From NCBI GenBank assembly GCA_030647555.1, contig JAUSJG010000008.1, forward strand, positions 1,467-65,466: a DNA stretch of 64,000 nt, given 5' to 3'. This document shows positions 8,973 to 13,085 of this stretch, piece by piece; the first letter of the stretch is position 1; each line of letters opens with the position of its first letter. Below the pieces are notes generated by a model. The model was given only the letters and a program-made list of their open reading frames with translations, ran no database searches and was not told the origin of the DNA. Both the position numbers and the translations under genes were made by a program. This DNA is from a bacterium. GTDB lineage: Bacteria; Patescibacteriota; Andersenbacteria; UBA10190; CAIZMI01.

Positions 8973-9043
8973 GGGTGTCGGGAGAAGGTGGTGTAATTTT
9001 TATGAGCACCTTTTTTAATAAGAGCTCTTTCTGAGTTCAGATT

Positions 9044-9186
9044 TGTATATGGTATTTAGTATATAGTATATGGATTTACAATGTTTGGTGGTAAGATAAT
9101 TTTTTGCGGTTGACTAATCATTGGTCGGAACTTTACAAAACAACATCGGACAATAATTCCATATACCATACACTAAATACTATACG
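9044..9186. mobile_element. MITE-like element, family 1, copy 1
   Basis: Left terminus tgtatatggtatttagtatatagtatatggattta. Right terminus aattccatataccatacactaaatactatacg (inverted). The internal sequence is homologous to copy 2. Confidence 0.7.
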
Positions 9187-9283
9187 CTTTTTCTAATTGT
9201 GCACGGTGTTTGTTTTGTTGTTTATGTTCTTGACTTTGGAAATGCCAAATAATATACTCTAAAGTCCGCTATGGTGGCGGAGT

Positions 9284-11194
9284 ATGAAGATCCTTTCACA
9301 ACTGAAAGAGAGGTGCGATATGGCAGGCACGGAGCGTGTTTTGACGCTTCCGGAGTTGCAAAAAAGGGCACTCCGGGCGTTGGACGATGCACGGCTTGTT
9401 TGTTGGGCGCGGGACGAAAGTCTTAAGCCGAGGGAGGTTTTGCGTTTGGCGCAGGGGCTTAAGGGGTTGTCTCGTCGACAACCCGAGGCAGCAAGATGCA
9501 TGGCGGTGATCCGCCGTGACTATGGCCTAGAAGCCCTGGATCTATTTATCTCAAGCATGGCGCGAGCACGGGCGGAATTATCCGCCACGGAGCAGGCCCA
9601 CCGAGGAGAAATCATGGACACTCGAGTATTGCAGAGTATTGTTGGTTTGACTGATGTTCGCAAGAAGTTTGAGCTGTTACTGAAGAACGGTTACGCGAAA
9701 GAAGCGGCCGAGTTCTTGCTTGAACTGGCTACGAATGGCACGGCTTTTTGTTGGCTTTCTGTGGGTCAAGTAAGAATTGCAAATCCGCTTGGCGATGAGT
9801 TTTGTCAAGAAAAGAGCGGTTCTGCAATTTCCAGTGTGGTGTTTGTTTTTCGGAGGGAAATTGGGAAAGGATTTTTCCCTCTTGATGACCAAGAACAAAA
9901 ATCAGAATCAGAACTTTCAATTCGGTTAGTCAGCTTGGTGCCGATGTTGGAAAAGGCCGGTTTGACTGAAACTTGTCGCGTTGTCGCAATGGAGATCGTA
10001 AAGGCTGTGTTGGAAAATACCGTCAAACACGATCCGCGCGGTGAAGAAAGTCCTGCCAACTATTGGAATGTAGTGGGAACTACTGCGACGGCGCGGGAAC
10101 TTTGGCCGGTCGGTCAGCGGAATCTGGAAAACAATTCGTTGGCTTTTCAGGTCGAAATTTGGCAAGCACGTTTTCACTTTTTTGTCGGTGATCTTGGCCC
10201 GTTAACACAGCAAGTTTTACCGTCATTGGATGATGGTTACCGTGGAACGTTGGAAACGTACCAACAGCTCGATTGGTTGGTCGATTATCTGCAGGAATGC
10301 GGATGGACCATCGAGCAAGTTTGCCAAGAGTTTATCGATTGGCTGGAACGGCACGCGGAACATAATTTGAACAATCAGGTTTTTGTGGCCGTGGCCGGTT
10401 CCGCGCGTTTGCAGTACGGACTGTCTTTGTCGAAAGCTCACTTCGCGCTTCACAAACGTCTCGAATTCTGCTGGCGACAGTTGTGCAACGAGGATCCAAG
10501 AGTACTTTCGTTAGAGATGTTTGTTCAACTGGGACGGCTTGGCTTGTTTAGTAAAGATGACGCCAGTTTTTTCCTGCGCGAACTCACGGATTTGTTGGCG
10601 CGGGGAAGAGTGGCGTTAACGGCGCAGATTGTACGCGTACTTTGTTCTCTAACCTCGGTTGGTTTATGTCAATGTTTTTCAGGGCCTTATAGCGCGTTGA
10701 AAAAAACAGTGTTGGCGGAATTGGGAGAGCTTGCTCCCGAAGCCTTCGATCTGGCAATAGAAAGGCAAGCGTTCGGCGTTGCCGCCGCGCTTGGCCAGCA
10801 CTTCAACTGTGTGGATGAGGCAGCTTTACGCCTCGAGGCCAACAGATCATTGCGAGCGAAATTGGACGAGATCATTCCCGGTCCAGAAACGATGAAAAGC
10901 GCAGATCGAGAAGAAGTGCTCCTTTACGCGCTTGATGGTACCTGTCCTTCCATCGGAGACGAAGAAGATTGCTCGGACGCCACTCCCGAACTGATTGTCA
11001 TGGGAATGCCGGGGAAGGGTTGGAATGGCACCTTGACTCACGAGCAAGCGGAAAAGTATTTCGACGTGCGTGCACAGCGCGACGAATTGCTCAAGACTTT
11101 GGTTGAGATTCGCAAAACCGTGATCAAAGGATCGGTCGAAACGGCACTCGCGCTGGAAATGCCGATCGCGTTGGAAGTCGTAACGCTTCTGTAG
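9284..11194 (+). CDS. hypothetical large alpha-helical protein (Leu/Ala/Arg-rich) encoded in a GC-rich island
   Basis: ORF of 636 aa. Local GC is about 60% against roughly 40% in flanking DNA. ORFs also appear on the opposite strand, which is typical of GC-rich DNA. No motif recognised. Confidence 0.45.
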   Translation: MKILSQLKERCDMAGTERVLTLPELQKRALRALDDARLVCWARDESLKPREVLRLAQGLKGLSRRQPEAARCMAVIRRDYGLEALDLFISSMARARAELSATEQAHRGEIMDTRVLQSIVGLTDVRKKFELLLKNGYAKEAAEFLLELATNGTAFCWLSVGQVRIANPLGDEFCQEKSGSAISSVVFVFRREIGKGFFPLDDQEQKSESELSIRLVSLVPMLEKAGLTETCRVVAMEIVKAVLENTVKHDPRGEESPANYWNVVGTTATARELWPVGQRNLENNSLAFQVEIWQARFHFFVGDLGPLTQQVLPSLDDGYRGTLETYQQLDWLVDYLQECGWTIEQVCQEFIDWLERHAEHNLNNQVFVAVAGSARLQYGLSLSKAHFALHKRLEFCWRQLCNEDPRVLSLEMFVQLGRLGLFSKDDASFFLRELTDLLARGRVALTAQIVRVLCSLTSVGLCQCFSGPYSALKKTVLAELGELAPEAFDLAIERQAFGVAAALGQHFNCVDEAALRLEANRSLRAKLDEIIPGPETMKSADREEVLLYALDGTCPSIGDEEDCSDATPELIVMGMPGKGWNGTLTHEQAEKYFDVRAQRDELLKTLVEIRKTVIKGSVETALALEMPIALEVVTLL

Positions 11195-11221
11195 TCAGTC
11201 GTAGTAGGTTAGTAGTTTGAC

Positions 11222-11254
11222 CCGCATGGTTCTTTGGAACTATGCGGTTTTTTG
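11222..11254 (+). terminator. rho-independent terminator after 9284..11194
   Basis: ccgcatggttctttggaactatgcgg followed by ttttttg. Confidence 0.6.
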
Positions 11255-11331
11255 TATTTGGCAGATGATTCGTAGGGGAGCACGTCCCCGTGCTCCCGCA
11301 ATAAAACGATATCAGTTTGTCACTCGGATAA

Positions 11332-11787
11332 TTACTTTTTGTATAATTCTAAGTAGTATTTATACATAGCACCGATATTGCTGGTAGGTATTTGTTTTAT
11401 CACAGAATAAGCTGAGAAATGATTCTTGTTCAAAACTATCGGATTTCCATCCGATACTTTTATTAGATACCCGGTTGATAAATCTTGTCTATTATTTTCC
11501 GTATTAAATTTGCCTACAAACTGACTGAGCATTATTTTATCTTTTGGATTGATATTTAAACCAACCTCTTGTTGGGCGATTCTTGTAAGTGTGGCATCTA
11601 TACTTTCTCCCTTTAACATCCGCAAACCAGGGAGTGCCCATTGATTTTTGTATGGAGCGATTTTTCGCTTTACCAAAATTACTCCTTCATCGCCGTATTC
11701 AATAATAAGATCAAAGGTGGGAATAACAGCCCATTCCAAAATTAGATCAAATATTTCATTGGGGGCAAAACCCTTGTACTCCTTCAT
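11332..11787 (-). CDS. Nudix-fold hydrolase-like protein with degenerate Nudix box
   Basis: GLRMLKGESIDATLTRIAQQEVGL compared with the consensus GX5EX7REUXEEXGU shows a one-residue shift, RE changed to RI and EE changed to QE. A 2-bp gap to the upstream gene suggests an operon. Confidence 0.5.
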   Translation of the reverse strand: MKEYKGFAPNEIFDLILEWAVIPTFDLIIEYGDEGVILVKRKIAPYKNQWALPGLRMLKGESIDATLTRIAQQEVGLNINPKDKIMLSQFVGKFNTENNRQDLSTGYLIKVSDGNPIVLNKNHFSAYSVIKQIPTSNIGAMYKYYLELYKK

Positions 11788-11789
11788 TA

Positions 11790-12062
11790 CTATTTCTGTT
11801 TTTGTATAGATTCGATAACCAAACGGACATTCGGATTTTCTGAAGGAACGATATTGATTTTTCCCTTTCCATAAGTTTCTTCCAGACCGTGAAAAAACTC
11901 ATCAGCCCACGACGGAGTAATAACGGTTACTTGGCTAAAATCAAGTTCAATTTGTTCTTTTGTATCTTTTGGGATTGTGTATGCTTGCGCGGCCAATAGC
12001 GCTTCGCGGCCAGCCGGTCGCGAAATCAAAAACTTGCCAAATTTACTCATATCGATACGCAT
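11790..12062 (-). CDS. STAS-like small protein (DUF4325-type)
   Basis: 90 aa with the pattern ...ISRPAGREALLAAQAY...IELDFSQVTVITPSWADEFFHGL. Its size and pattern are typical of DUF4325 partners of GHKL ATPases. Confidence 0.5.
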   Translation of the reverse strand: MRIDMSKFGKFLISRPAGREALLAAQAYTIPKDTKEQIELDFSQVTVITPSWADEFFHGLEETYGKGKINIVPSENPNVRLVIESIQKQK

Positions 12063-12071
12063 AATTATAGT

Positions 12072-12686
12072 TTATCTTGTATTCATTATTATTTCAACTT
12101 CGGCATAGGTGCCATATACAAATTCTTGTTTATCTTGTACAAATGAAGCCACAACGCTTTCGTTTATTGGAAAAACTGTTTCAAATTTAGCGTCGCCTGT
12201 TTGAATGAAAAAATGTGCCTCGGGAAATTCTTGATTTAGTGATTTCATGATAAATTTTAATCCTCTTCCGCGATTTTCAGGTTGGCGGCCACTTATCTGC
12301 TTGGTCAACGCAACAATTAAGGCATCATGATGGGAGGTTAGATTTTTGTCTGCTTGTTGTAGGGAACGTAAAACTCCCTGTCCGCGGTCTGCAATAATGA
12401 TCCGTAAAACATTATTTTGTACTTCAAAAGAAAACCAACAACCGGATATATCCTTCCATGAACCCAAATTATGATCAAAACAGTTGGTTGTAAGTTCGGC
12501 GGCAAGAGCCGTGAGGAGCGCTGTTTTTTCTTCAGCAAGGCCATTGGCGATTGCTTCTTGGTATAATTTTGGCAGGCGGCCGTCGGCAATATCGCGCGTT
12601 GGACAATAATATTGAGGTGGTGGTTCATTCACAAAATTTTCTTTTGCCCAAATTATTGCTTGATTTTCCATAGAGCTATTATACAT
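12072..12686 (-). CDS. GHKL-superfamily (histidine-kinase-like) ATPase
   Basis: Bergerat-fold motifs: N box ELTTNCFDH, G1 box IADRGQGV, G2 box GRGLKFI. Confidence 0.65.
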   Translation of the reverse strand: MYNSSMENQAIIWAKENFVNEPPPQYYCPTRDIADGRLPKLYQEAIANGLAEEKTALLTALAAELTTNCFDHNLGSWKDISGCWFSFEVQNNVLRIIIADRGQGVLRSLQQADKNLTSHHDALIVALTKQISGRQPENRGRGLKFIMKSLNQEFPEAHFFIQTGDAKFETVFPINESVVASFVQDKQEFVYGTYAEVEIIMNTR

Positions 12687-12789
12687 CGCTTTTACAAAAT
12701 GTGTCCGTATCCAGTAATTATTTTGTCTTTCTTGCTTCTTGTTCGAAAATTATTTATTCTATTATAGTCAAAGGAGGACGGCGTTCCGA

Positions 12790-12850
12790 CTTCCGATATC
12801 CCGCCCATCTGGGCGAGGCTCGCCCTGAGGGGCGGCTGACTTCCGATCTC
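12790..12850. repeat. GC-rich REP-like hairpin unit (family 3) flanked by 10-bp direct repeat gacttccgat
   Basis: cccgcccatctgggcgaggctcgccctgaggggcgg. Related units lie at 26497-26540 and, as two tandem inverted copies, at 50670-50770. Confidence 0.6.
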
Positions 12851-12857
12851 CTCGTAC

Positions 12858-12957
12858 GGCCTCATCGTCTAACGGCTAGGACGAAGCGTTCTCAACGCTT
12901 AAATCGGAGTTCGCCCGCCAAAACGGCGGGCGCCCGCTGAAATAGCGGGCGATTCTC
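12858..12957 (+). pseudogene. truncated duplicate of tRNA-Glu (nt 1-56) with two GC hairpins inserted in the T-arm
   Basis: 12858-12913 matches the first 56 nt of the tRNA at 13011. Then follow cccgccaaaacggcggg and cgcccgctgaaatagcgggcg, then attctc. No 3' acceptor strand is present. Confidence 0.55.
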
Positions 12958-13010
12958 TAGTATGATTTTGCAATAGACAACCGCAAGAAAACAGATAAAA
13001 CTGTAAATAC

Positions 13011-13085
13011 GGCCTCATCGTCTAACGGCTAGGACGAAGCGTTCTCAACGCTTAAATCGGAGTTCGATTCTCCGTGAGGCTACCA
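13011..13085 (+). tRNA. tRNA-Glu (anticodon CUC), CCA encoded
   Basis: Manual fold: 7-bp acceptor stem with a G1:U wobble, D-arm gtct/ggac, anticodon stem aagcg/cgctt, loop ttCTCaa, T-arm cggag-ttcgatt-ctccg, discriminator A then CCA. Confidence 0.7.

What the first reader, a model, noticed from the sequence alone, without database searches (positions are those of the whole stretch)
11332..13085. GHKL ATPase – STAS-like (DUF4325-type) – degenerate Nudix three-gene operon abutting tRNA-Glu and a truncated tRNA duplicate
Three minus-strand genes sit with 9-bp and 2-bp gaps. The first is a 204-aa Bergerat-fold ATPase with N-box ELTTNCFDH, G1 box ADRGQG and G2 box GRGLKF. The second is a 90-aa STAS-like protein. 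The third is a 151-aa Nudix-fold protein whose Nudix box is shifted and has lost the catalytic RE and EE residues. A small GHKL kinase-like ATPase paired with a STAS partner recalls RsbW/RsbV partner-switching modules, but no sigma factor is present. The added Nudix gene makes this a plausible uncharacterised signalling or conflict module, possibly nucleotide-sensing or nucleotide-modifying. The operon lies between a GC-rich alien-looking island (9284-11194) and tRNA-Glu(CUC) at 13011-13085. A truncated copy of that tRNA (nt 1-56, 12858-12913) sits 98 bp upstream of the intact gene, fused to GC hairpins. Partial tRNA duplications are classic scars of site-specific integration or excision.
Basis: partly seen in the sequence, partly recalled or inferred. 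Interest (0 to 1): 0.72.

Follow-up and report, generated by a model that had tools for sequence, protein, structure and literature searches.

The report
Minimal kinase–STAS switch pair, Nudix bystander
Two of the three genes form a widespread, unstudied protein-kinase-plus-substrate switch of tiny "candidate phyla" bacteria, related to the newly described VapK/VapS and CapK/CapS systems, while the third gene (Nudix) is a conserved enzyme that was already at this spot, in a fast-changing stretch of genome beside a tRNA gene.

Summary
The sequence features are real. Three tightly packed minus-strand genes encode a GHKL ATPase, a DUF4325/STAS protein and a Nudix protein. They lie beside tRNA-Glu(CUC) and an exact 59-nt partial copy of that tRNA.

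The functional unit is two genes, not three. The DUF4325 gene directly follows the kinase gene in 78 of 80 related loci. Single-protein wHTH–GHKL–DUF4325 fusions also exist. No related locus has the Nudix gene.

The pair lacks VapK's sensor domain, VapS's inhibitory tail, any toxin and any adjacent immune operon. In relatives, 43% of the kinases carry MerR or winged-helix DNA-binding domains.

The Nudix protein is not degenerate. It belongs to a family 60–77% identical across bacteria and archaea, with a GDP-mannose-hydrolase-like box. The closest relative has it at the same position without the pair.

The PBP2–tRNA-Glu interval differs in all four close genomes, and the tRNA's orientation flips among them.

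Verdict: a new variant of a known kind, of moderate interest.

The parts
12072..12671 (-). GHKL (Bergerat-fold) serine-kinase-like ATPase, 199 aa. The ORF is open back to the ATG at 12686, but family alignments and the NCBI call start at M6 (12671). This is the HTH-less class of the family.
11790..12062 (-). DUF4325 STAS-fold partner, 90 aa. It carries the near-invariant motifs SRPxGRE and DF...PSWxDE. Ser51, the putative phospho-acceptor, sits at the N-cap of helix alpha2.
11332..11787 (-). Nudix-fold protein, 151 aa, of a highly conserved family with a GDPMH-like variant box (L55 x5 E61 x7 R69 I A x Q E74 x G76 L). It was resident at this locus before the pair arrived. It is probably co-transcribed here but is not part of the conserved module.
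12678..12707 (-). Best sigma-70-like promoter match for the pair (CGGACA-18-TATAAT, 10 of 12). Its -10 box overlaps the upstream ATG, which would suit a leaderless or near-leaderless transcript starting near M6. This is a consensus match only.
12855..12913 (+). Exact 59-nt copy of TAC plus tRNA-Glu nt 1-56 (tRNA pseudogene fragment).
12914..12957 (+). 38-nt GC-rich double hairpin inserted in the T-loop of the partial copy, followed by ATTCTC (tRNA nt 57-62). After that, similarity to the tRNA ends.
   Evidence: (I2)
12788..12851 (+). 14-nt direct repeats (GACTTCCGAT[A/C]TCC) flanking a 36-nt GC-rich palindromic block, just upstream of the partial tRNA copy.
   Evidence: D9
13011..13085 (+). 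Intact tRNA-Glu (CUC) with encoded CCA. The same gene lies in the opposite orientation in relatives L089 and L091.
9284..11194 (+). 636-aa ORF (likely start M13 at 9320, giving 624 aa) of a very rare unannotated family. It is the GC outlier of the window and is absent from the same slot in all three close relatives.
8973..13007 (.). Hypervariable slot between conserved PBP2 and tRNA-Glu/p226/TypA. It carries different cargo in each of four close genomes.

Best explanation
The core of the finding is a self-contained two-gene phospho-switch.

Components. One gene encodes a small SpoIIAB/RsbW-like GHKL serine kinase, whose nearest sequence relatives are the kinase domains of VapK-type proteins. 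The other encodes a single-domain DUF4325 STAS partner.

Most likely mechanism. The kinase binds ATP through its intact N, G1 and G2 boxes. It docks the STAS protein and phosphorylates the near-invariant Ser51 at the N-terminus of helix alpha2. This switches what the STAS protein, the kinase, or both can bind.

Likely output. In 43% of related kinases a MerR or winged-helix DNA-binding domain is fused to the N-terminus, so the family's usual output is probably transcriptional. The window's kinase has no such domain and would have to act by protein-protein partner switching on a target encoded elsewhere.

Input. This is unknown. The ssDNA-sensing STAS domain of CapK/VapK is absent.

The Nudix gene. 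It is a conserved GDP-mannose-hydrolase-like enzyme that already occupied this locus. The pair landed just upstream of it, in a hypervariable slot next to tRNA-Glu.

Shown: the gene linkage, the folds, motif conservation, homology to VapK/VapS, the HTH fusions, the Nudix bystander status and the slot's variability.
Inferred: kinase activity on Ser51, partner switching, and a transcriptional or other output.
For: Linkage:
- The DUF4325 gene lies immediately downstream on the same strand in 78 of 80 loci drawn from at least 577 species genomes. Nothing else is conserved nearby.
- Fused wHTH-GHKL-DUF4325 proteins exist.

Kinase:
- The model has pLDDT 91.8.
- E59, N63, D95, G97, G99, G135 and G137 are invariant in 77 sequences.
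- The kinase hits phrog_3364 at E=6.4e-15 over the GHKL half of that profile, and VapK hits phrog_3364 at 3.6e-38.
- hhalign against VapK residues 123-288 gives 84% probability, E=7e-6.

Partner:
- Pfam DUF4325; the model has pLDDT 92.5.
- VapS itself is DUF4325 at 62.7 bits. hhalign against VapS gives 85% probability.
- Ser51 is Ser in 80 of 82 partners and lies at the start of helix 50-64.
- Ser51 aligns with CapS phospho-Ser54 and lies one residue from VapS Ser48. The phospho-sites are taken from PMC13373217.

HTH fusions: 25 MerR and 8 wHTH among 77 kinases.

Nudix as bystander.
Against: - No biochemical evidence exists, and I could not predict a kinase-partner complex with these tools.
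- The Pfam HATPase_c_2 match is below the gathering score, and no PDB sequence match was found.
- No phosphatase, sigma factor or other recurrent target gene lies near the pair in 80 loci, so the output is unidentified, especially for the HTH-less class to which this window belongs.
- The VapS acceptor Ser aligns one position away from Ser51.
- The 2-bp spacing to the Nudix gene leaves room for a local functional link.
- The pair is absent from the syntenic slot in three close relatives. That pattern fits an accessory or mobile element at least as well as a core regulator.
Confidence: 0.6

Rival explanations
1. True anti-sigma / anti-anti-sigma pair. The kinase sequesters a sigma factor encoded elsewhere in the genome, and the STAS partner releases it, as with SpoIIAB-SpoIIAA or RsbW-RsbV.
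For: The best structural matches of the kinase are SpoIIAB, RsbW and UsfX. The partner matches RsbV, SpoIIAA and TM1442. One JGI relative is annotated as an anti-sigma regulatory factor (P0004).
Against: No sigma-factor or PP2C phosphatase gene recurs next to the pair in 80 loci. The kinase is repeatedly fused to MerR or wHTH DNA-binding domains, which points to direct DNA binding rather than sigma capture. Its nearest sequence relatives, VapK and CapK, do not act on sigma factors (PMC13373217).
Confidence: 0.15
2. Mobile toxin-antitoxin or defence-type cassette, a stripped-down VapKSC relative. The kinase or an unlinked effector harms the cell when triggered, and the cassette is carried into tRNA-proximal variable slots.
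For: [quoted passage not shown] The pair sits in a hypervariable slot next to a tRNA and is absent from that slot in three close relatives. A tRNA lies within 500 bp upstream in 5 of 80 loci, against about 1.5 expected. An IS200-like transposase follows the pair in L002. AbiEii or AbiEi neighbours occur in about 3 loci.
Against: No toxin domain is present and no recurrent third gene exists. There are no PADLOC hits, no phage or plasmid matches, and only 1 viral contig. Neighbours are about 95% housekeeping genes. The partner is unusually conserved for a conflict gene (mean column identity 55%). Kinase similarity broadly follows taxonomy: Andersenbacteria 60%, Uhr-/Magasanik-/Kerfeldbacteria 41-47%.
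Confidence: 0.15
3. Three-gene functional unit. The STAS protein binds and gates the downstream Nudix enzyme, analogous to VapS gating VapC, and kinase phosphorylation releases it.
For: The gene order (kinase, STAS, effector) is the same as in vapKSC (PMC13373217). There is a 2-bp gap with probable co-transcription. In the closest relative's contig the pair is followed by another pyrophosphate-cleaving enzyme, an inorganic pyrophosphatase.
Against: The Nudix gene is absent from 80 of 80 related loci. It is present at the same position without the pair in L089. Its family is 60-77% identical across bacteria and archaea and stands alone in housekeeping contexts. The partner lacks the C-terminal inhibitory helix that VapS needs to block VapC (90 aa against 116 aa).
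Confidence: 0.07

Closest known systems
VapK/VapS of the VapKSC toxin-antitoxin / anti-phage system (Chambers et al., EMBO J 2026, PMC13373217)
   Same: The GHKL kinase domains are homologous: both hit phrog_3364, the window kinase at E=6e-15 and VapK at 4e-38, and hhalign gives 84%. The partner is the same Pfam family as VapS (DUF4325; hhalign 85%). The partner gene directly follows the kinase gene. A conserved Ser sits at the N-terminus of STAS helix alpha2.
   Different: The kinase lacks VapK's N-terminal STAS sensor domain (residues 1-120, including the ssDNA-contact residue F54). The partner lacks VapS's C-terminal inhibitory helix (residues 94-116). There is no VapC/PIN toxin. The family lives mostly in Patescibacteria amid housekeeping genes. 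The acceptor Ser is offset by one residue in the alignment.
CapK/CapS regulators of adjacent immune operons (same paper)
   Same: Both use a GHKL kinase plus a STAS substrate. The motifs FG..L..GRE and (T/D)(P/S)S(W/F)..E are shared with the CapS STAS domain. Ser51 aligns with the CapS phospho-Ser54. An HTH sits on the kinase in 43% of family members, as in CapK.
   Different: Overall similarity is weak (hhalign 15% and 9%). CapK is HTH-STAS-GHKL and CapS is STAS-wHTH, whereas here the kinase has no STAS domain and the partner has no wHTH. No immune operon lies downstream.
SpoIIAB-SpoIIAA and RsbW-RsbV anti-sigma partner-switching modules
   Different: No sigma factor or PP2C phosphatase is linked. 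Sequence similarity is marginal (Pfam HATPase_c_2 below cut-off). The partner belongs to DUF4325, not the classical STAS family PF01740. HTH fusions occur on the kinase.
GDP-mannose mannosyl hydrolase (Gmm/NudD/WcaH), for the Nudix gene only
   Same: It is the best NCBIfam and PDB sequence match (E=1e-8 and 5e-5). It shares the atypical Nudix box, which lacks the Glu of 'RE' and the first Glu of 'EE' (R-L-T-M-A-E in GDPMH against R-I-A-Q-Q-E here).
   Different: The score is far below the family cut-off (34.8 bits against 146). The first Gly of the box is Leu. The family has its own invariant set (E97, R100, Q101, D102, N120, H123). The substrate is unknown.

Membership tests
VapKSC | Kinase with a VapK-type GHKL domain | tested here: met
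   phrog_3364: window kinase E=6.4e-15 and VapK E=3.6e-38. hhalign A1 against VapK residues 123-288: 84%, E=7e-6.
VapKSC | N-terminal STAS sensor domain on the kinase (ssDNA groove, F54) | tested here: not met
   The kinase is 199 aa. The alignment starts at VapK residue 123 and at phrog_3364 profile position 141. The model shows only two short N-terminal helices before the N-box helix.
VapKSC | DUF4325 STAS partner with a conserved Ser/Thr at the alpha2 N-terminus | tested here: met
   Pfam DUF4325 34 bits; VapS 62.7 bits. Ser51 is Ser in 80 of 82 partners. The helix starts at residue 50. It is offset by one residue from VapS S48.
VapKSC | C-terminal inhibitory helix on the STAS partner (VapS 94-116) | tested here: not met
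   The partner is 90 aa and ends with STAS helix 77-88. The family consensus is 87-97 aa.
VapKSC | VapC (PIN) toxin gene downstream | tested here: not met
   The downstream gene here is a Nudix gene. No recurrent third gene exists in 80 loci. PIN is not among the 25 listed (of 81) families hit by the 66 downstream genes; the listing is truncated at 25.
CapKS | CapK architecture HTH-STAS-GHKL | tested here: not met
   The window kinase has no HTH and no STAS domain. An HTH is present in 33 of 77 relatives, but without an internal STAS domain. hhalign against CapK gives 9%.
CapKS | CapS architecture STAS-wHTH (DNA-binding repressor) | tested here: not met
   The partner is a bare 90-aa STAS domain. 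hhalign against CapS gives 15%, although Ser51 aligns with S54.
CapKS | Located directly upstream of an immune operon | tested here: not met
   Downstream genes in 66 loci are housekeeping; only about 3 are defence-like. The four window genes have no significant PADLOC hit.
SpoIIAB/RsbW-type partner switching | Anti-sigma-type GHKL serine kinase fold | tested here: met
SpoIIAB/RsbW-type partner switching | Single-domain STAS antagonist with an acceptor Ser | tested here: met
SpoIIAB/RsbW-type partner switching | Cognate sigma factor and PP2C phosphatase in the operon or neighbourhood | tested here: not met
   No recurrent neighbour exists. Neither appears among the 25 listed families for the upstream and downstream neighbours; both listings are truncated. 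The rest of the genome was not examined.
SpoIIAB/RsbW-type partner switching | Phosphoryl transfer to the STAS serine | not testable with these tools
   This needs a kinase assay or a confident complex model.
Canonical Nudix hydrolase | Nudix fold / Pfam NUDIX | tested here: met
   33.4 bits against a cut-off of 21.1.
Canonical Nudix hydrolase | Full Nudix box GX5EX7REUXEEXGU | tested here: not met
   The box reads L55 x5 E61 x7 R69-I70-A-Q-Q73-E74-V-G76-L. L55 is invariant and I70 nearly invariant (at least 90%) across the family, while position 73 is variable; the canonical Glu residues are missing in all members.
GDP-mannose mannosyl hydrolase | NCBIfam PRK15434 at or above its cut-off | tested here: not met
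   34.8 bits against a cut-off of 146. The resemblance is limited to the box pattern and the N-terminal half.
tRNA-targeted integrative island | Direct repeats of part of the tRNA bracketing the island | tested here: not met
   The 59-nt repeats bracket only 94 bp, and the genes lie outside them.
tRNA-targeted integrative island | Integrase or recombinase gene in the segment | tested here: not met
   None of the four genes in 8973-13007 matches an integrase.
tRNA-targeted integrative island | Segment variable between close relatives with conserved flanks | tested here: met
   four genomes carry four different cargos between PBP2 and tRNA-Glu.

The most novel reading that the evidence does not exclude
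The (HTH-)GHKL kinase plus bare DUF4325 STAS pair is a portable 'plug-in' phospho-switch of Patescibacteria. It inserts, often next to tRNA genes, immediately upstream of ordinary genes and places them under its control. Control would be transcriptional through the kinase-borne HTH in some lineages, and by direct STAS-enzyme binding in HTH-less ones. In this genome it would have captured the Nudix enzyme as its regulated output. That would extend the CapKS/VapKSC 'controller of adjacent genes' principle from immune operons to housekeeping metabolism in ultra-small bacteria.
Probability: 0.1. Interest if true: 0.65.

Novelty: new variant of a known kind. Interest (0 to 1): 0.4.

Why it matters
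Regulation in candidate-phyla-radiation bacteria is almost unexplored, and they encode few recognisable signalling systems.

A kinase-STAS pair present in at least 577 species genomes would be one of the few lineage-wide candidate switches. Its active-site and acceptor residues are near-invariant, and it has been fused independently to MerR and winged-helix domains.

The pair also broadens the just-described CapK/VapK family. Here the kinase-substrate core exists without the ssDNA-sensing domain, the toxin or the immune operon. So the core predates, or outlives, those add-ons and must respond to a different input.

For annotation, the result warns against reading tight gene spacing as a functional operon: the Nudix gene is a resident neighbour.

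Tried and rejected
- PADLOC and NCBIfam scans of the kinase and partner found nothing useful.
- A PDB sequence/profile search with the kinase family found no match at E<=1.
- tblastn of the kinase against the phage and plasmid collections found no match.
- An Rfam scan of 8.5-14.5 kb at E<=1 found only the tRNA.
- My GC-hairpin pattern search across the window found nothing, but the pattern had the wrong loop length, so it says little.
- The first literature search on 'VapS' returned irrelevant papers.
- tblastn with a VapS fragment found only a fragmentary DUF4325 pseudogene-like ORF on a Leptotrichia plasmid. It was useful only because it showed that VapS-like sequences are annotated as DUF4325.
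- I looked for shared junction sequences or target-site duplications at the borders of the 636-aa ORF insertion, compared with L089, and saw none.
- I rejected the view that the Nudix protein is a decayed pseudo-enzyme, because its atypical residues are invariant in a family with 65% mean column identity.
- I rejected the idea that the partial tRNA copy marks the ends of an island containing the operon, because the geometry is wrong.
Full report
**1. What is in the sequence**

The three minus-strand ORFs exist as described:
- kinase-like ATPase, 12072-12686;
- DUF4325 protein, 11790-12062;
- Nudix protein, 11332-11787.

The intergenic gaps are 9 bp and 2 bp. Family alignments and the NCBI gene call place the real start of the first gene at M6 (12671, 199 aa). 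The source is an uncultivated Patescibacteria-type MAG (NCBI 'bacterium' Q7S57_02160, a 257-kb contig).

Pfam places the second protein in DUF4325 and the third in NUDIX, both above gathering scores. The first reaches only E=1.7e-3 against HATPase_c_2. ARAGORN and Rfam confirm tRNA-Glu(CUC) at 13011-13085. An exact 59-nt copy (3 upstream bases plus tRNA nt 1-56) lies at 12855-12913.

**2. The functional unit is two genes**

The kinase has 265 detectable relatives in the protein database, mostly from Patescibacteria and also from Elusimicrobiota and deltaproteobacterial MAGs.

In 80 fetched loci, iterated HMMs find a DUF4325 gene immediately downstream on the same strand in 78. One exception ends at a contig edge. 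I did not follow up the other, L046. Clustering of the flanking genes found no other conserved neighbour; the next largest cluster spans 4 loci.

Single polypeptides with the order wHTH-GHKL-DUF4325 occur in two loci. These are a Rosetta-stone argument for physical partnership.

The Nudix gene and the 636-aa ORF have homologues in none of the 80 loci. The closest kinase relatives (76% and 59% identity) are followed by the DUF4325 gene and then by an inorganic pyrophosphatase or a convergent gene, not a Nudix gene.

**3. The kinase**

Histidine-kinase catalytic domains score 9.7 or lower.

The Bergerat-fold motifs are invariant in 77 sequences: E59/N63 (N box), D95-x-G97-x-G99 (G1) and G135-x-G137-L (G2).

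The strongest sequence-level link in any library is to PHROG family phrog_3364 (E=6.4e-15). It matches only the C-terminal half of that 304-residue profile.

**4. The partner**

Two motifs are near-invariant: S14-R15-P-x-G18-R/K-E20, and D41-F42 ... P50-S51-W52-x-D54-E55. Ser51 is Ser in 80 of 82 partners. It lies at the first turn of helix alpha2 (helix 50-64). This is where SpoIIAA, RsbV, CapS (S54) and VapS (S48) are phosphorylated (PMC13373217, sections read).

**5. Relation to CapK/CapS and VapK/VapS**

A weak PDB hit of the partner profile to 'Escherichia VapS' led me to Chambers et al., EMBO J 2026.

In that work:
- CapK (HTH-STAS-GHKL) phosphorylates the repressor CapS (STAS-wHTH) when ssDNA binds CapK.
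- VapK (STAS-GHKL) phosphorylates VapS (STAS plus a C-terminal helix), which releases the PIN toxin VapC.

I took the sequences from the paper's supplementary files. Results:
- VapS is a strong DUF4325 member (62.7 bits).
- VapS aligns with my partner family at hhalign 85% probability, E=6e-6.
- VapK is phrog_3364 over its full length (E=3.6e-38).
- VapK residues 123-288 align with my kinase family at 84%, E=7e-6.
- CapS and CapK are more distant (15% and 9%). The CapS alignment still superposes FG..L..GRE and puts Ser51 on Ser54.

The differences are clear-cut. The window kinase lacks the N-terminal STAS sensor domain. The partner lacks the VapS inhibitory tail and the CapS wHTH. No PIN toxin is present. 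[quoted passage not shown] I found no paper describing the Patescibacteria pair.

**6. Clues to the output**

Of 77 kinases, 25 carry an N-terminal MerR-type HTH (mostly Microgenomates) and 8 carry a MarR/ArsR-type winged helix (Elusimicrobiota). These are two unrelated DNA-binding domains on one kinase core, which points to transcription as the usual output. The window's kinase belongs to the HTH-less class (about 57%).

Genes downstream and upstream of the pair are a cross-section of housekeeping functions, including LepA, DnaK, SecA, AtpG, aminoacyl-tRNA synthetases, DnaB and RNase J. Only a few are defence or toxin-antitoxin genes: a type I methyltransferase, AbiEi/AbiEii and RmuC. No phosphatase or sigma factor recurs.

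The family is essentially absent from phage and plasmid collections and from IMG/VR, where it appears on 1 contig.

**7. The Nudix gene**

Its family has 425 detectable members at 57-77% identity among the best 120 listed. It spans Patescibacteria, DPANN archaea (Woese-, Pace- and Aenigmarchaeota) and Chloroflexota isolates. Mean column identity is 65%.

The Nudix box is in register but atypical: L55 x5 E61 x7 R69-I70-A71-x-Q73-E74-x-G76-L77. L55, E61, R69, E74 and G76 are invariant and I70 and A71 nearly so, while position 73 varies. This is the same loss of two glutamates seen in E. coli GDP-mannose mannosyl hydrolase, which is the best NCBIfam and PDB match. Further invariant residues (E97, R100, Q101, D102, N120, H123) argue for an active enzyme with a non-canonical mechanism.

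Homologues sit between secA and secDF in an Andersenbacteria MAG and beside a methyltransferase gene in Phototrophicus. Neither has a GHKL or DUF4325 gene nearby.

**8. The locus is a hypervariable slot beside tRNA-Glu**

A metagenome scan with the flanking PBP2 recovered three close relatives, with PBP2 identity of 81%, 69% and 68%. The flanks are collinear in all of them: on one side orfB, orfC, orfD and PBP2; on the other tRNA-Glu, the 226-aa protein, TypA and onward.

The interval between PBP2 and tRNA-Glu differs in every genome:
- Window: 636-aa ORF, Nudix, STAS, kinase.
- L089: Nudix (77% identical, 42 nt after PBP2) and a 245-aa membrane protein.
- L090: a 279-aa protein and a 268-aa histidine-phosphatase-family protein.
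- L091: the same phosphatase and a 155-aa protein.

The pair's HMMs hit nothing in the relatives' loci. So the Nudix gene predates the pair at this site, and the pair and the GC-rich ORF are separate gains.

The tRNA-Glu gene is on the + strand in the window and L090, and on the - strand in L089 and L091. A cassette of about 170-220 nt, made of the tRNA plus a 3' trailer hairpin, is inverted between relatives.

The window alone has the partial tRNA copy. After nt 56 it carries a 38-nt GC-rich double hairpin, resumes for 6 nt (ATTCTC) and then diverges. The two copies bracket only 94 bp, and none of the four genes in the slot matches an integrase. So the copy is a scar of local recombination at an unstable tRNA site, not the boundary of an island that contains the operon.

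Across the family, a tRNA lies within 500 bp upstream of the kinase in 5 of 80 loci, against about 1.5 expected. This is a weak hint of tRNA-proximal insertion.

**9. Interpretation**

The best-supported reading is a minimal kinase-substrate switch of the SpoIIAB/RsbW-VapK lineage that phosphorylates Ser51 of its DUF4325 partner. Both the input and, in HTH-less members, the output remain unknown.

I rate the conclusions as follows:
- Two-gene-module and Nudix-bystander conclusions: about 0.9.
- Ser51 phosphorylation: about 0.65.
- A transcriptional or partner-switching output: about 0.35.
- Overall: 0.6.

The rivals are listed with their evidence: a true anti-sigma pair (0.15), an accessory toxin-antitoxin or defence-like cassette (0.15), and a local STAS-Nudix regulatory link (0.07).

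**10. Verdict**

The pair is a new architectural variant of a recently characterised kind of system, the GHKL kinase plus STAS substrate. It is widespread in an under-studied phylum. The 'three-gene Nudix module' and the 'integration scar flanking the operon' do not hold. Interest is moderate (0.4).

Noticed in passing
window 13011-13085; L089 5573-5645; L090 13959-14031; L091 13659-13731: The tRNA-Glu(CUC) gene points in opposite directions in otherwise collinear close relatives (window and L090 on +, L089 and L091 on -). A roughly 170-220 nt cassette, made of the tRNA plus a 3' trailer with a GTTTCGC..GCGAAAC hairpin, is inverted between them. The window copy lacks that trailer and encodes CCA, unlike the relatives.
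   Followed up: partly
window 9284-11194: The 636-aa ORF (likely start M13 at 9320) is preceded by a strong TTGACT-17-TATACT promoter-like site (9229-9262) and followed by a hairpin plus T-run terminator at 11222-11247. It is the GC maximum of the window (0.509). Its family has only 51 cluster representatives among 1.84 billion proteins and no Pfam, PADLOC or PHROG match. It is absent from the same slot in three close relatives.
   Followed up: partly
window 9048-9078 and 9154-9184: A 31-nt inverted repeat (87% complementary, 75 nt apart) lies in the AT-rich spacer between PBP2 and the 636-aa ORF, at the left edge of the variable slot. It may be a boundary or regulatory element.
   Followed up: no
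window 12788-12851: 14-nt direct repeats (GACTTCCGATATCC / GACTTCCGATCTCC) flank a 36-nt GC-rich double-hairpin block. This resembles the 38-nt GC-rich double hairpin inserted in the T-loop of the partial tRNA copy (12914-12951). Both could be miniature palindromic insertions. My one pattern search for further copies in the window found none, but it used a wrong loop length.
   Followed up: partly
L059:6957-7985 (+), L075:4325-5392 (-), L031:3220-4463 (+): Some Microgenomates loci carry a second, divergent copy of the system right next to the main pair. It occurs either as a single wHTH-GHKL-DUF4325 fusion protein (342-355 aa) or as a 320-aa kinase plus a 94-aa DUF4325 protein.
   Followed up: partly
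L005, L006, L007, L022, L061 (tRNA 13-191 bp upstream of the kinase gene): In five family loci a tRNA gene (Lys, Arg, Asp, Val or Ser) lies directly upstream of the kinase and points the same way. About 1.5 such loci are expected from the tRNA density in the same loci. In L002 the pair is followed by an IS200-like transposase.
   Followed up: partly
window 11332-11787 and alignment A4: The Nudix family is 57-77% identical (best 120 hits) between Patescibacteria, DPANN archaea and Chloroflexota. Such conservation across domains in a small enzyme of unknown substrate suggests either an important shared metabolic role or recent inter-domain transfer among episymbiont lineages.
   Followed up: partly
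L090 12966-13772 and L091 11956-12762: The variable slot of two relatives carries a 268-aa histidine-phosphatase-superfamily gene. The same superfamily (His_Phos_1) also appears twice among the genes downstream of kinase-STAS pairs in other loci. This is probably coincidence, but a phosphatase partner was being looked for.
   Followed up: no
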